NCBI GenBank assembly: GCA_965218095.1 | Contig: OZ244587.1 | Coordinates: forward strand, 6,144,001 to 6,208,000 | DNA length: 64,000 nt | Source of the DNA: Candidatus Poribacteria bacterium | GTDB lineage: Bacteria; Poribacteria; WGA-4E; PCPOR2b | Reading direction: 5' to 3' | Shown here: piece after piece, positions 3 to 60,135 of the stretch | How positions within the stretch are numbered: the stretch's first letter is position 1 | Layout: each line of letters starts with the position of its first letter | Position numbers and translations under genes: made by a program | Notes under the pieces: generated by a model | Database searches by the model: none | What the model saw: only the letters and a program-made list of their open reading frames with translations | What the model was told of the DNA's origin: nothing

Positions 3-1289
3 TCACCGGATGAGCGACGGAGGCATATTAAACGATATTTCCAGGAACCGGATCACTTTGAAGAAACGGAAGTCTCATTTTTCGCAGACCCTGAGAAGGT
101 GTTTGAAGAAATCGCGGAGGTTCGCCGACCCCAACGCAAGATGCTCTACCGGTTCACGGTGCCTGTGCATGACCCCGAACAAAAGGTCATCGGTCGCATC
201 ATCGTCTTTCGGGACATCTCCAAAGAAATCGAAATTAGCCAGATGAAAGCCGAAGTCTCCCGATTGCGTGCTGAACTCGAAATCAAATGTTCCTTTGATA
301 AGATTATCGGAAAGAGTCAAAAGATGCAAGCGGTGTACGCCCTGATGCAACAGGTGATTGAAAGCAACATTACCGTCCTCATTCAGGGAACGAGCGGTAC
401 TGGCAAAGAGCTCGTCGCAAAAGCAATCCACTTTAACAGCCCGCAAAAAACAGGCCCATTTGTCGCCGTCAACTGCGCTGCCATTCCTGAGACGCTCATT
501 GAAAGCGAGCTTTTTGGACACGAGCGCGGCGCCTTTACCGGTGCGACGATGCAAAGAATCGGAAAATTCGAGAGTGCAAACGGCGGGACGATCTTCCTCG
601 ATGAAATCGCCGACATGCAGCCGCTGCTTCAAGCCAAGTTGCTGCGCGTGCTCCAGGAAAGAGAAATTCAGCGTGTCGGTGGAACGGCGAACATTCCCAT
701 CGACGTCCGGGTCATTGCGGCAACGAATAAGGACCTGGAGGCTGCCGTGAAAGTTGGTGAGTTCCGCGAAGATCTTTTTTATCGCATTGCCGCCTTTCCC
801 ATCCCGATTCCACCGCTCAAAGAACGCCGCGAAGACATACCCTTGTTGGCGGAACATTTTTTGAAACAACATACCGAAGACGCTGACAAATCGATTTCAG
901 GAATTTCCACCGGGGTGGTACAATTGTTGATGAGCTATGACTGGCCCGGCAATGTCCGGGAGTTAGAGAATACGGTTGAGCGTGCCATTTTGTTGGAGAC
1001 ATCAGATGTGTTACAAAGTGGTAATCCCGCTTTCAGTGGACTGCATTCGGCTCACAAGCAACTATTCCATCTCCCTGCCTTCCAAAGCACAGGCGCCCCA
1101 CCCATCGTCCCAACTGCAACCGAAATCCTTCCCCTTGAAGAAGTTGAAAAACAGGCGCTTATCCACGCGCTCGAAGTGACTGACAACAATATCACAAAGG
1201 CTGCTGAAGCTTTGGGTATTAATCGCGTCACCATTCATAGAAAATTGAAAAAATATCATCTGCTTGAAAGAAAAATATCATCTGCTTGA
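3..1289 (+). CDS. Sigma-54-dependent transcriptional activator (PAS-like C-terminal part + AAA+ + Fis HTH), 5'-partial
   Basis: Frame open from base 3; GTSGTGKE Walker [16 protein letters not shown] loop, FLDEI Walker [10 protein letters not shown]-terminal [23 protein letters not shown]. Confidence 0.95.
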
Positions 1290-1292
1290 AAG
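1249..1292. repeat. Perfect 22-bp tandem duplication at the 3' end of the activator
   Basis: aaaaatatcatctgcttgaaag x2. Confidence 0.95.
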
Positions 1293-1295
1293 AAA

Positions 1296-1358
1296 GTAGA
1301 GCCCCGATAGTCGGGATTTCACTTCGTTCAACCTGTCCGATTCTCGGACATGCTCTAC
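1296..1358. repeat. GTAG...CTAC palindrome (REP-like) carrying a nested 30-bp mini-element (1302-1331, minus orientation)
   Basis: Removing 1302-1331 restores GTAGAGC-c-TGTCCGA-ttc-TCGGACA-t-GCTCTAC. Confidence 0.75.
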
Positions 1359-30264: not shown

Positions 30265-30375
30265 TGATCTGAACTCCGAAGGTACGTGAAACGTGATGCG
30301 TAAAACGAATCCTTCCCTTCCTTCCGCTCAATGGACAAACCTAAGTAGTTCATTGCTTAAATTCGACGAGGGTTT

Positions 30376-30458
30376 GTAGTCGCGCAATTTGAGCGTAGCG
30401 AAATCGCGATCCATCGAGGTCATTGCGCGTTTTAACGGGCGATGAATCGCCCGACTAC
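30376..30458. repeat. GTAG-type REP doublet with nested 31-bp mini-element (30389-30419)
   Basis: Removing ttgagcgtagcgaaatcgcgatccatcgagg restores CGCGCAAT-TC-ATTGCGCG; second hairpin GGGCGATGAATCGCCC-GACTAC. Confidence 0.85.
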
Positions 30459-30503
30459 GAACCAACCCCATACGGACTTGTGACATGGACCACGAAGTCA
30501 GCA

Positions 30504-58800: not shown

Positions 58801-60135
58801 GTGTCAGAAATGAACATAGACACAGCCAAAATCTACGCGAAAGGCGGCAGGGGAGGGAACGGCTGCATCAGTTTTCGTCGGGAGAAATTTGTGCCGCGTG
58901 GCGGTCCCAACGGCGGGGATGGCGGGCGCGGCGGAAGCGTCATCCTCGAAGCAGTAGAAGGGATAAGTACCCTCATTGATTTGCGGCATAATCTGCATCA
59001 AGTTGCAGAAAACGGTCAGCACGGCATGGGAAAACTGATGCACGGAGCAGACGCCGCGGATCGAATCGTCAAAGTGCCCGCCGGTACGATTGTCCGGTTG
59101 GATGAAGCGGGAGAAGTTATCACAGATCTGAGGAAGACCAGCCAGCGCGTCGTTATCGCTCGCGGTGGGATTGGCGGTAAGGGAAATGCGCGTTTCAAGA
59201 GTAACACGTTTCAAACACCGCGTGTCGCCGAAAAGGGTGAACCGGGCGAGGAGCGCACTATCGCGTTGGAGGTCAAACTCATTGCGGATGTCGGCTTAGT
59301 CGGTTATCCAAACGCTGGAAAATCGACGCTGCTGGCGCGAACCTCCGCCGCAAAACCGAAGATTGCTAACTATCCATTCACAACGCTCTCGCCCAACTTA
59401 GGTGTTGTCCGAATTGACCCGGAACATAACTTTGTGCTTGCAGATATTCCCGGTCTAATCGAGGGCGCACACCACGGAGCGGGGCTGGGGCACGACTTTC
59501 TGCGGCATATCGAGCGCACGAAGATGCTCATTCATGTGGTCGATACCGCCGCCGTCGATGGGCGTGATCCAATCGCGGATTATGAGCAACTTAACGAAGA
59601 GCTTGGGTTATACAACCCGCGACTCATGCGTTTGCCCCAGTTAATCGTCCTCAATAAAATTGATCTCCCCGATGCCCAGGCCAATTTGCCGAGGATTAGA
59701 GATTACTTCGGTAAGTTGAACGAAGATAAATCCCGAGCATTGGGACGCCGCTTGTTCCCGATCTCCGCAGTCACCGGCGAGGGAGTGGATCGGCTCATCA
59801 GAGCTGTGTATCGACTCCTTCAACGAATTAACGAGCGTATTCGTGAGCGGCGAGAAACTGAGCCTTTCCAACCGACGTTCCACATTCCCAAACCAACTGA
59901 GCGATTTGAACTTATCAGACGGAAGGATCGCTTTGTCGTACGTGGCGAAGAACCACGTCGCGCCGTCCTCATGACCGATATGGAAAGCGATCAGGCGCTT
60001 GTTTTGCTTCATCGAAAACTCCAAAAAATGGGCGTTATGAATGCGTTGATCAAAGCCGGCGTCAAAGAAGGAGATACGGTTCAGGTTGATGCGTTCGAGT
60101 TTACATTCACCCCCAATGAAATCAACACAAATTAA
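58801..60135 (+). CDS. obgE: GTPase ObgE with OCT domain
   Basis: GGRGGNG...FRREKF, GYPNAGKS, DIPG, NKID, ISA, GDTV. Confidence 0.98.
   Translation: MSEMNIDTAKIYAKGGRGGNGCISFRREKFVPRGGPNGGDGGRGGSVILEAVEGISTLIDLRHNLHQVAENGQHGMGKLMHGADAADRIVKVPAGTIVRLDEAGEVITDLRKTSQRVVIARGGIGGKGNARFKSNTFQTPRVAEKGEPGEERTIALEVKLIADVGLVGYPNAGKSTLLARTSAAKPKIANYPFTTLSPNLGVVRIDPEHNFVLADIPGLIEGAHHGAGLGHDFLRHIERTKMLIHVVDTAAVDGRDPIADYEQLNEELGLYNPRLMRLPQLIVLNKIDLPDAQANLPRIRDYFGKLNEDKSRALGRRLFPISAVTGEGVDRLIRAVYRLLQRINERIRERRETEPFQPTFHIPKPTERFELIRRKDRFVVRGEEPRRAVLMTDMESDQALVLLHRKLQKMGVMNALIKAGVKEGDTVQVDAFEFTFTPNEINTN
59716..59745 (+). mobile_element. 30-bp hairpin mini-element inserted in frame in obgE
   Basis: ttgaacgaagataaatcccgagcattggga closely matches the reverse complement of 1302-1331 (ttgaacgaagtgaaatcccgactatcgggg). 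Confidence 0.7.

What the first reader, a model, noticed from the sequence alone, without database searches (positions are those of the whole stretch)
59716..59745. The 30-bp mini-element sits in frame inside the essential GTPase obgE
Seen: ttgaacgaagataaatcccgagcattggga has the same length, start and hairpin as the intergenic copy at 1302-1331 and encodes LNEDKSRALG between the NKID and ISA motifs; deleting it gives DYFGKRRLFPISA with no target duplication. Inference: a tiny mobile hairpin element tolerated in core genes because its length is a multiple of three. With the nested copies this is my best candidate for an undescribed system in the window; its mobilising enzyme is not here.
Basis: partly seen in the sequence, partly recalled or inferred. 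Interest (0 to 1): 0.78.

Follow-up and report, generated by a model that had tools for sequence, protein, structure and literature searches.

The report
In-frame mini hairpin repeat in Obg
A 30-base copy of a small hairpin repeat that is scattered through this sponge-symbiont (Poribacteria) genome sits in frame inside the essential GTPase gene obg and in about a dozen other real genes, adding ten amino acids each time; this kind of 'selfish DNA inside genes' is already known from Rickettsia and other bacteria, so it is a neat new example rather than a new system.

Summary
Window 59716-59745 is a 30-nt member of a dispersed repeat family: a 15-nt tail (TTGAGCGAAGCGAAA) followed by a TCCCGN-loop-NCGGGG hairpin. 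nhmmer finds 45 full copies in this 6.35-Mb genome.

The copy lies in frame in obg. Of 29 orthologs from related genomes, 26 lack exactly these 10 residues. Clean 30- or 36-nt presence/absence was also seen in GlnE, the CCA-adding enzyme, a BadF-type ATPase and PTPS. There is no target duplication. The 5' flank is conserved as CA[AG]G and is already present in two empty sites.

Thirteen copies lie deep inside Pfam-verified genes. None of them is the 31-nt length isoform, which makes up 10 of 21 parsed intergenic copies.

The family is confined to one family of Candidatus Poribacteria, with about 0 to 106 copies per genome.

It is not an undescribed system. Intragenic REPs and Rickettsia palindromic elements are the same phenomenon.

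No cognate transposase was found. The four Y1/HUH genes in this genome are flanked by other hairpins or inverted repeats, so HUH-type mobilisation in trans is inferred, not shown.

Verdict: real, well supported, a new member of a known kind, of moderate interest.

The parts
59716..59745 (+). 30-nt repeat copy in frame in obg; encodes LNEDKSRALG (Obg residues 306-315)
   Evidence: nhmmer E=1e-6 genome-wide. Exact 10-residue gap in 26 of 29 orthologs.
59731..59745 (+). Hairpin part of the copy: TCCCGA-gca-TTGGGA, a 3-nt loop, which gives the 30-nt isoform
   Evidence: Weak as a single fold. Covariation across the family.
59712..59715 (+). 5' flank TAAG, a partial match to the family's conserved flank CA[AG]G
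   Evidence: Flank matrix over 27 copies: C 23, A 24, A/G 25, G 22. Orthologs read AAA here.
58801..60135 (+). obg gene (444 aa) with intact G motifs. It is the only strong Obg match in the genome.
   Evidence: best own match 6.8e-298; the others 7e-11 or weaker. (1lnz E=8e-117).
1302..1331 (-). Intergenic 30-nt copy, 13 nt past the stop of an ORF that ends at window 1289
   Evidence: nhmmer E=3e-8. Placement.
30389..30419 (+). Intergenic 31-nt isoform copy, nested between the arms of a larger palindromic repeat
   Evidence: nhmmer E=8e-8. Length. Sequence.

Best explanation
The 30 bases are one copy of a REP-like, single-hairpin mini-element that belongs to one family of Candidatus Poribacteria. 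It inserted into obg without target duplication. It survives there because this isoform is exactly 30 nt, has no stop codon in the frame used, and lands in a variable surface linker of the G domain between the G4 and G5 motifs. It is therefore most likely transcribed and translated as ten extra hydrophilic residues.

Shown:
- A dispersed family with lineage-specific copy number.
- Exact presence/absence in orthologs of five genes.
- No target duplication.
- A conserved 5' flank CA[AG]G that pre-exists in two empty sites.
- Only 3n-length isoforms inside genes.
- A strong bias to the sense strand and to one reading frame.

Inferred:
- Copies are moved in trans by a Y1/HUH (IS200/IS605- or RAYT-type) transposase acting on the single-stranded top strand, inserting 3' of CA[AG]G and able to excise precisely. 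I give this about 0.5.
- Copies in genes are neutral passengers filtered by selection, not functional modules. I give this about 0.7.
For: The family is real: 21 matches against 0 in the control, 45 profile copies, and the Obg copy at E=1e-6.

Exact gaps in orthologs:
- Obg: 26 of 29.
- GlnE: 14 of 18 lack exactly 10 aa / 30 nt.
- CCA-adding enzyme: 4 of 4.
- BadF-type ATPase: 1 of 1.
- PTPS: 3 of 4 lack exactly 12 aa / 36 nt.

Host ORFs are real genes by Pfam.

Length filter: deep-CDS copies are 30 nt in 11 of 13 and 31 nt in 0 of 13. Intergenic copies are 31 nt in 10 of 21 (p=0.005). My reading of the 20 sampled G001 copies shows the same split.

Flank: CA[AG]G is conserved and is present in the empty GlnE and CCA sites.

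Sense strand: 19 of 21 deep-CDS copies (p=0.0003 to 0.004).

Distribution: 106 copies in G001, 35 in G000, 8-25 in genus g4 and 0-5 in g5. In other families the counts are 0-3 with up to 2 mismatches. With up to 1 mismatch only 2 of 102 genomes outside the family had a match, one each.

Top-strand-only T.G closing pair in 24 of 32 copies.

The insert falls in a length-variable linker when aligned to solved Obg structures. In a low-confidence model it is helix end plus coil.

An independent DNA contig carries it. One RNA-library contig runs from upstream coding sequence through 29 of its 30 bases.
Against: No cognate enzyme was found.
- In G000, three of the four Y1_Tnp genes (Y1b, Y1c, Y1d) are each flanked on both sides by a different hairpin repeat. 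The fourth (Y1a) is flanked by unrelated inverted repeats.
- Of the two Y1 loci in burst genome G001, the RAYT-like one (C36) is flanked by another REP. The IS200-like one (C8) has a hairpin of the same superfamily about 250 nt upstream of the gene, but not as an element end.
- IS605-like elements in relatives have unrelated left-end hairpins.
- Y1_Tnp presence (19 of 19 genomes) does not track copy number.

The Obg empty site reads AAA|CG, which is only a partial match to CA[AG]G.

Translation of the insert is not shown. The RNA contig does not bridge the 3' junction, and DNA can be present in an RNA library.

The Obg hairpin alone folds no better than shuffles.

The frame bias among sense copies is only marginal (16 of 19, p=0.02). 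The sense bias could reflect function rather than filtering.

Gene calls were crude (longest ORFs), so 10 'ORF-edge' copies could not be classed.
Confidence: 0.8

Rival explanations
1. The element is real and mobile, but it is spread by something other than a Y1/HUH transposase: an unrecognised recombinase, templated repair or gene conversion between copies, or hairpin-primed template switching.
For: No Y1 gene is flanked by this hairpin in G000 or at the two G001 Y1 loci. Y1 presence does not track copy number. Di Nocera et al. report no obvious correlation between tyrosine transposase genes and REP families, and no dedicated transposase for CGTC REPs (PMC3733652, passages). The CCA empty site already holds GTT, the first bases of the element, which would suit microhomology.
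Against: A conserved 4-5-nt flank on one side only, no duplication, a single-strand-specific T.G pair and exact boundaries are what HUH single-strand transposition gives (recalled knowledge of IS608 and ISDra2). Trans action from a Y1 gene without flanking copies was not excluded.
Confidence: 0.25
2. The copies inside genes are kept because they do something: a useful peptide tag or linker (VERSEIPxxG, LxExKSxxxG), or an mRNA hairpin that tunes translation or stability.
For: 19 of 21 deep-CDS copies are sense, and 16 of 19 sense copies use one frame. The RR1 insertion is retained in four genera. In G000 RR1 and Lpd the hairpin is still perfect although relatives have degraded sequence there. 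The one variant seen inside the Obg copy in another sample is synonymous.
Against: The hosts are unrelated proteins, and by Pfam coordinates many of the sites lie between domains. Close orthologs do without the insert. Old copies decay: G005 Obg, and g4 RR1 has lost 15 nt. Antisense frames give more hydrophobic peptides (FRFAQL, DFASLNL), so filtering alone can give the bias.
Confidence: 0.1
3. The 30 nt are not part of the mature message or protein: they are removed from the RNA or skipped by the ribosome, as translational bypass elements are.
For: Nothing positive. Translation was not shown, and the 3' junction was not bridged by RNA.
Against: All 13 deep-CDS copies keep the frame open and none is the 31-nt form, a constraint that removal or bypass would lift. 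An RNA-library contig carries 29 of the 30 bases joined to upstream coding sequence. No Rfam family matches.
Confidence: 0.03
4. Chance resemblance: the ten residues are ordinary lineage-specific Obg sequence that happens to look like the repeat.
For: G005 has ten residues at the same site whose DNA is not a significant profile match (E=7.4 in 75 kb).
Against: Profile E=1e-6 over 12.7 Mb of both strands. The length is exactly 30 nt, the site is empty in all 10 genomes of sister genus g4, and the same pattern recurs in four more genes.
Confidence: 0.02

Closest known systems
Intragenic REPs (GTAG-/CGTC-tagged palindromic repeats; Di Nocera et al. 2013, PMC3733652, passages read)
   Same: Short (20-40 bp) palindromic units, dispersed and mostly intergenic, with some lying wholly inside ORFs of known proteins. 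Insertions are thought neutral because they lie in linkers or loops. G.T pairs in the stems are noted. No simple link between transposase genes and repeat families.
   Different: Here the unit has a 15-nt non-palindromic tail, and the G[A/T/C]AG tetranucleotide sits 5 nt from the stem rather than at the end of the unit. The host is Candidatus Poribacteria. I could not see that paper's Additional file 3 (list of intragenic REPs), so a similar size filter may already be recorded there.
Rickettsia palindromic elements (RPEs; as described in PMC10969869, passages, and PMC3733652)
   Same: Palindromic selfish repeats inserted in frame into unrelated housekeeping genes, each family encoding a conserved peptide. 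About half the copies are in ORFs.
   Different: RPEs are about 150 bp according to the review, against 30 nt here. The phylum and lifestyle differ. No sequence relation was tested.
REPIN-RAYT systems (Bertels and Rainey; abstracts seen)
   Same: REP hairpins, and vertically inherited single-copy Y1 genes flanked by REPs. Three such loci exist in G000.
   Different: In that model the mobile unit is an inverted REP doublet and singlets are remnants. Here the unit gained in genes is a single 30-nt hairpin unit. No RAYT flanked by this hairpin was found.
IS200/IS605 single-strand transposons and their non-autonomous derivatives (recalled knowledge; no paper read)
   Same: Insertion 3' of a short specific sequence, no target duplication, subterminal hairpin, strand specificity, precise excision possible.
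   Different: Those elements have distinct left and right end hairpins. This one has one hairpin and 30-31 nt in all. No enzyme link was shown.

Membership tests
REP / GTAG-tagged palindromic repeats | Short (20-40 bp) unit with an imperfect palindrome | tested here: met
   30-31 nt with a 6-bp stem; pairs kept in 25 to 32 of 32 copies per position.
REP / GTAG-tagged palindromic repeats | GTAG (or CGTC) tetranucleotide at one end of the unit | tested here: inconclusive
   Positions 6-9 read G[A17/T6/C3]AG in 27 G000 copies. T or C predominates in genus g4. The tag is internal, 5 nt from the stem, not terminal.
REP / GTAG-tagged palindromic repeats | Many dispersed copies, mainly extragenic | tested here: met
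   45 copies in G000. 22 are intergenic, although crude ORFs cover about 83% of the genome. 106 copies in G001.
REPIN-RAYT system | A Y1 (RAYT) gene flanked by copies of the same REP | tested here: not met
   Three of the four Y1 genes of G000 are flanked by other hairpins and the fourth by unrelated inverted repeats. The G001 RAYT-like locus is flanked by another REP. ORFs bracketed by this hairpin are MsrA-like, oxidoreductase-like and acetyltransferase-like by my reading of their sequences, not transposases.
REPIN-RAYT system | The mobile unit is an inverted doublet of REPs | tested here: not met
   Gains in Obg, GlnE, CCA enzyme and BadF are single 30-nt units. Some intergenic copies do sit next to an inverted hairpin.
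Rickettsia palindromic elements | In-frame insertion into functional ORFs, encoding a family-specific peptide | tested here: met
   13 deep-CDS copies in G000, 10 of them reading VERSEIPxxG-like.
Rickettsia palindromic elements | Length about 100-150 bp and sequence relation to RPE families | tested here: not met
   Length is 30-36 nt. Sequence relation to RPEs was not tested.
MITE | Terminal inverted repeats and target site duplication | tested here: not met
   No duplication at the Obg, GlnE or CCA sites. The 5' tail has no inverted partner at the 3' end.
IS200/IS605-type (HUH) non-autonomous element | Insertion 3' of a fixed tetra- or pentanucleotide without duplication | tested here: inconclusive
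   The CA[AG]G flank is conserved and present in 2 of 3 clean empty sites (GlnE, CCA). The Obg, BadF and PTPS orthologs read AAA where the filled sites read AAG.
IS200/IS605-type (HUH) non-autonomous element | Cleavage and joining by a Y1 transposase | not testable with these tools
   Needs biochemistry. Y1_Tnp genes exist in 19 of 19 genomes of the family.
CRISPR repeat (solo) | Same sequence as the repeat of an array in the genome | tested here: not met
   The one clear array (G000 about 3.424-3.432 Mb) has an unrelated 37-nt repeat.
Translational bypass elements | Inserts of any length or frame, with stops, inside genes | tested here: not met
   Only open, 3n-length copies are found deep in genes.

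The most novel reading that the evidence does not exclude
A single 30-nt hairpin unit, not a REP doublet, is itself the transposing unit of a site-specific cut-and-rejoin system with no cognate flanked RAYT. It repeatedly enters, and perhaps precisely leaves, the same codon positions of essential genes in different Poribacteria lineages. The strong sense-strand and reading-frame bias would then reflect either transcription- or replication-strand-coupled insertion, or selection for the encoded VERSEIPxxG / LxExKSxxxG peptide as a functional linker or tag.
Probability: 0.2. Interest if true: 0.7.

Novelty: new member of a known kind. Interest (0 to 1): 0.45.

Why it matters
This is a clear natural experiment on how selfish DNA colonises genes. 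The same family has a 31-nt form that is excluded from coding sequence and a 30-nt form that is found in obg, glnE, the CCA-adding enzyme and other core genes.

It extends in-frame palindromic insertion from Rickettsia and a few other bacteria to an uncultured sponge-symbiont phylum.

For annotation and comparative work on Poribacteria, it explains recurrent 10-residue indels in conserved proteins.

If the single unit is truly the mobile form, and if same-site gain or precise loss is confirmed, it would bear on how REP-like elements move. That question is still open.

Tried and rejected
Searches for the mobilising enzyme led nowhere.
- Y1_Tnp in the own genome gave four genes. Three are flanked by other hairpins and one by unrelated inverted repeats.
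- Hairpin pairs that bracket ORFs enclose ordinary genes.
- Three G001 places with two nearby copies hold no transposase.
- Of the two G001 Y1 loci, one carries another REP. The other has a hairpin of the same superfamily about 250 nt upstream, not as an element end.
- IS605-like elements in G014, G013, G018, G002 and G016 have unrelated left ends. The one family copy near a Y1 gene in G014 lies about 190 nt outside that IS.
- Y1_Tnp across 19 genomes gave no correlation with copy number.

CRISPR origin was rejected. Rfam gave 0 matches in the window at gathering score and 0 at E<=1 around the intergenic copy.

Replication-strand bias. The orientation run is suggestive: 9 of 11 copies are '-' between 0.1 and 2.24 Mb, and 10 of 10 are '+' between 2.43 and 3.72 Mb, with the skew minimum at 2.52 Mb. 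But GC skew and gene-strand bias are weak, and other hairpin families show only a faint trend. I did not rely on it.

Unclear or empty ortholog comparisons.
- Lpd: the site is a variable loop, and g4 has a possibly degraded copy. 17 of 30 bases match by my count. I left it unclear.
- RecQ: no ortholog at E<=1e-100 in 5 genomes.
- The G005 Obg insert and the g5 GlnE 45-nt insert are not significant profile matches (E=7.4 and 2.9). The 'same-site recurrence' claim therefore rests firmly only on the RR2 gene (G000 and G001).

The Obg model has mean pLDDT 58, too low for a fold search, which I did not run.

RNA contigs did not cover the 3' junction, so nothing can be said there.

Supplementary files of papers are closed. 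Additional file 3 of PMC3733652 may list comparable single-REP inserts.

Rows dropped before counts:
- 104 of the 149 nhmmer hits, because E>=0.1 or the match lacked the 5' tail. They are mostly other hairpin families.
- 3 of 45 copies that my length parser could not read.
- 10 'ORF-edge' copies were kept apart from both classes.
- G021's Obg got no locus and was not aligned.
Full report
**Observation**

It lies in frame in a 444-codon ORF at 58801-60135.

That ORF is Obg. It matches B. subtilis Obg (1lnz) at E=8e-117 and T. thermophilus Obg (1udx) over nearly the whole length. It is the only strong Obg match in the genome.

The ten inserted residues, LNEDKSRALG, fall between the NKID (G4) helix and the PISA (G5) strand. 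In the alignments to solved structures this is where the homologs differ in length. An AlphaFold model built from 24 orthologs is poor overall (mean pLDDT 58.4). It places residues 306-308 at the end of a helix and 309-317 in coil before strand 318-320.

**Is it more than chance?**

The exact 30-mer with up to three mismatches finds only itself in the window. The 21-nt core finds both the Obg copy and the reverse strand of 1311-1331, against none in 100 shuffles.

The window is bases 6144001-6208000 of a single 6.35-Mb contig. In this genome the core with up to two mismatches occurs 21 times, against 0 for the reversed control.

A profile built from 26 seeds finds 149 hits at E<=10. Of these, 45 have E<0.1 and include the 5' tail. 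The Obg copy scores E=1e-6 and the 1302-1331 copy E=3e-8.

Most of the remaining hits share only the hairpin CCCGAT..ATCGGG. They belong to sister families with other 5' tails.

The element is a 15-nt tail, TTGAGCGAAGCGAAA, followed by a hairpin TCCCGN-loop-NCGGGG. Conservation stops abruptly after position 30. On the 5' side it extends over G-C-A-[AG]-G.

The Obg hairpin by itself folds no better than shuffles. Across 32 copies of the 30-nt form, however, stem pair 20/24 is C-G (20), A-T (5), T-G (2) or T-A (1). That is 28 of 32 paired, and 0 of 5000 column shuffles reach it. The closing pair is T.G in 24 of 32 copies, which pairs only on the top strand. Related copies can inflate such counts.

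**Is it an insertion?**

I took Obg from 30 related genomes and aligned 29 of them; G021 received no locus. The result:
- 26 have an exact ten-residue gap.
- Two, from family f4, have two residues at the site.
- One, G005, has ten other residues (LRESKAHRAG).

The empty sites read GGGAAA|CGTCGT and the filled site reads GGTAAG[30 nt]CGCCGC, with no duplication.

The G005 insert matches the family consensus at about 20 of 25 defined positions by my count, but it is not a significant profile match (E=7.4 in 75 kb).

Gene trees of Obg and GlnE both place G000 as sister to genus g4, with G005 outside that pair. All ten g4 genomes have the empty site. If the G005 insert is the same element, either it was lost precisely in g4 or the site was hit twice. 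Two single-gene trees cannot decide between these.

**The wider pattern**

Of the 45 copies, 22 are intergenic and 23 lie in crude ORFs. Those ORFs cover about 83% of the genome.

Thirteen copies lie deep inside genes that Pfam confirms, with domains on both sides or spanning the site. The genes are GlnE, RecQ, an N6 DNA methylase, a dihydrolipoamide-dehydrogenase-like protein, the CCA-adding enzyme, two sigma-54 response regulators, a histidine kinase, a BadF-type ATPase, PTPS, a pseudopilin, Obg, and the C-terminal end of one protein with no Pfam match.

Ortholog comparisons:
- GlnE lacks exactly 10 aa / 30 nt in 14 of 18 orthologs. The four g5 genomes carry an unrelated-scoring 45-nt insert at the same point.
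- The CCA enzyme lacks exactly 10 aa in 4 of 4.
- The BadF-type ATPase lacks exactly 10 aa in 1 of 1.
- PTPS lacks exactly 12 aa / 36 nt in 3 of 4.
- One response regulator (RR1) carries the insert in all five genomes compared. It is partly deleted in g4, so that insertion is old.
- The other response regulator (RR2) has an antisense copy in G000 and a fresh one (E=3.5e-9) at the same site in G001. It has none in g4 or g7.
- Lpd is unclear.
- RecQ found no close ortholog.

The empty GlnE and CCA sites already read CA[AG]G at the insertion point.

**The multiple-of-three idea**

The family has two main lengths. The 31-nt form has a four-base loop, as in GATCTATC. The 30-nt form has a three-base loop.

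| Class | 30 nt | 31 nt | Other lengths |
|---|---|---|---|
| Deep-CDS (13 copies) | 11 | 0 | 2 (PTPS, 36 nt by ortholog comparison; pseudopilin, not checked against orthologs) |
| Intergenic, parsed (21 copies) | 6 | 10 | 5 |
| ORF-edge, probably upstream of true starts (8 copies) | 3 | 4 | 1 |

Three of the 45 copies were not parsed. For the 31-nt form, 0 of 13 against 10 of 21 gives Fisher p=0.005.

In a sample of the first 20 perfect-core copies listed for G001, eight lie deep in long ORFs. By my reading, seven of the eight are the 30-nt form and none is the 31-nt form, while four of the twelve others are 31 nt.

Reading frame is also biased:
- In G000, 10 of 13 deep-CDS copies read gTT GAG CGA AGC GAA ATC CCG (VERSEIPxxG). 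Two (Obg, BadF) read TTG A.. (LxExKSxxxG). One is antisense.
- In the G001 sample the counts are six, one and one.
- Against the frame distribution of CA[AG]G in genes, 19 of 21 sense copies gives p between 0.0003 and 0.004. Sixteen of 19 sense copies in one frame gives p=0.02.
- The third sense frame has TGA. The antisense frames give more hydrophobic peptides.

**Distribution and organism**

Relatives of the Obg locus are named Candidatus Poribacteria.

With up to two mismatches the core occurs 106 times in G001, 35 in G000, 8-25 in genus g4, 13 in G005, 11 in G006, 0-5 in g5 and 0-3 in three other families. Controls give 0-1.

With up to one mismatch across 121 genomes of the phylum:
- 16 of 18 genomes of the window's own family have a match.
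- 2 of 102 genomes outside it have a match, one each.
- In g4 the tag position reads T or C (GCGTAGCG, GCGCAGCG).

**Independent sequence data**

A DNA contig from another study spans the whole gene with the insert, 0 gaps and 11 differences. One difference, G>A at 59742, is a synonymous TTG>TTA by my reading of the frame.

An RNA-library contig covers 59514-59744. It joins upstream coding sequence to 29 of the 30 bases but does not bridge the 3' junction. This is a weak hint of retention in RNA, not proof.

**Mechanism**

The following fit single-strand HUH (Y1) transposition of the IS200/IS605 or RAYT kind. That comparison rests on recalled knowledge.
- Exact boundaries and no duplication.
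- A one-sided conserved flank.
- A top-strand-only pair.
- Bursts in one lineage.

The enzyme was not found:
- Three of the four Y1_Tnp genes of G000 are each bracketed by a different hairpin (GGCGGGGC.., AGAAACCGAGTTT.., GGTGGGGC..). The fourth is flanked by unrelated inverted repeats.
- The G001 Y1 loci and the IS605-like elements of relatives likewise carry other ends.
- Y1_Tnp is present in 19 of 19 genomes, whatever the copy number.

**Comparison with what is known**

Di Nocera et al. (PMC3733652; passages read) describe REPs lying wholly inside ORFs of known proteins in several species. They argue that such inserts are neutral because they lie in linkers or loops.

A review (PMC10969869; passages read) describes Rickettsia palindromic elements of about 150 bp inserted in frame in many genes.

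REPIN-RAYT abstracts hold that doublets are the mobile unit and singlets are remnants. The single-unit gains seen here differ from that model.

Two searches combining Poribacteria with repeat or transposase terms listed no paper on this element among the 27 titles shown. This is not proof that none exists.

**Verdict**

The claim of an undescribed system is not. It is a new member of a known kind, with an unusually clean length filter and an open question about how it moves.

Noticed in passing
window 30370-30470: The 31-nt copy at 30389-30419 sits between inverted arms (GGTTTGTAGTCGCGCAAT ... ATTGCGCG ... CGACTACGAACC) of a larger palindromic repeat. Relatives of that larger repeat carry the sister tail TCTAGCGTAGCGAG elsewhere in the genome.
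   Followed up: partly
window 1252-1297: A 22-nt direct duplication (AAATATCATCTGCTTGAAAGAA twice) spans the end of the ORF that stops at 1289, just before the intergenic copy.
   Followed up: no
G000:C1:626397-626952, 3422175-3422849, 6008643-6009385: Three weak-scoring Y1_Tnp genes are each bracketed by their own hairpin repeat, as in REPtrons. The first keeps its place a few kb from the Lpd gene in several g4 genomes, by coordinates.
   Followed up: partly
G000:C1:3424219-3432449: A CRISPR-like array with a 37-nt repeat (GTTTCAACCTTTGCCCCGACGAAAAGGGGACTGAAA) lies about 2 kb from one of these Y1 genes. 66-nt tandem repeats lie about 1.2 kb from another (from 628051) and at 1673997.
   Followed up: no
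L177 (G013:C1:6601300-6604100), about 1005-1100 in gene orientation: The left-end hairpin of an IS605-like element is itself interrupted by a TCCCGATTTATCGGGG-type hairpin insertion that two sister copies (L174, L175) lack.
   Followed up: no
G000:C1:1755540-1756940 (-): In a phosphoglucomutase-family gene the element's own TTG is the first possible start codon, 8 nt after an AGGAG. The element may therefore supply the start and the first ten codons.
   Followed up: no
G000 whole contig: Element orientation is '-' for 9 of 11 copies between 0.1 and 2.24 Mb and '+' for 10 of 10 between 2.43 and 3.72 Mb. The switch lies near the cumulative GC-skew minimum at 2.52 Mb. Skew and gene-strand bias are weak.
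   Followed up: partly
L075-L078 (GlnE of genus g5): A 45-nt in-frame insert (VELESEDWDETPRIK) sits at exactly the GlnE codon where G000 has its 30-nt copy. It begins CAAGTTGAAC like the element but is not a significant profile match.
   Followed up: partly
G000 genome-wide: Of 161 TCCCG..CGGG[GA] hairpins of all sister families, 74 lie inside crude ORFs. Intragenic location may therefore be general for this hairpin superfamily, not only for the family studied here.
   Followed up: no
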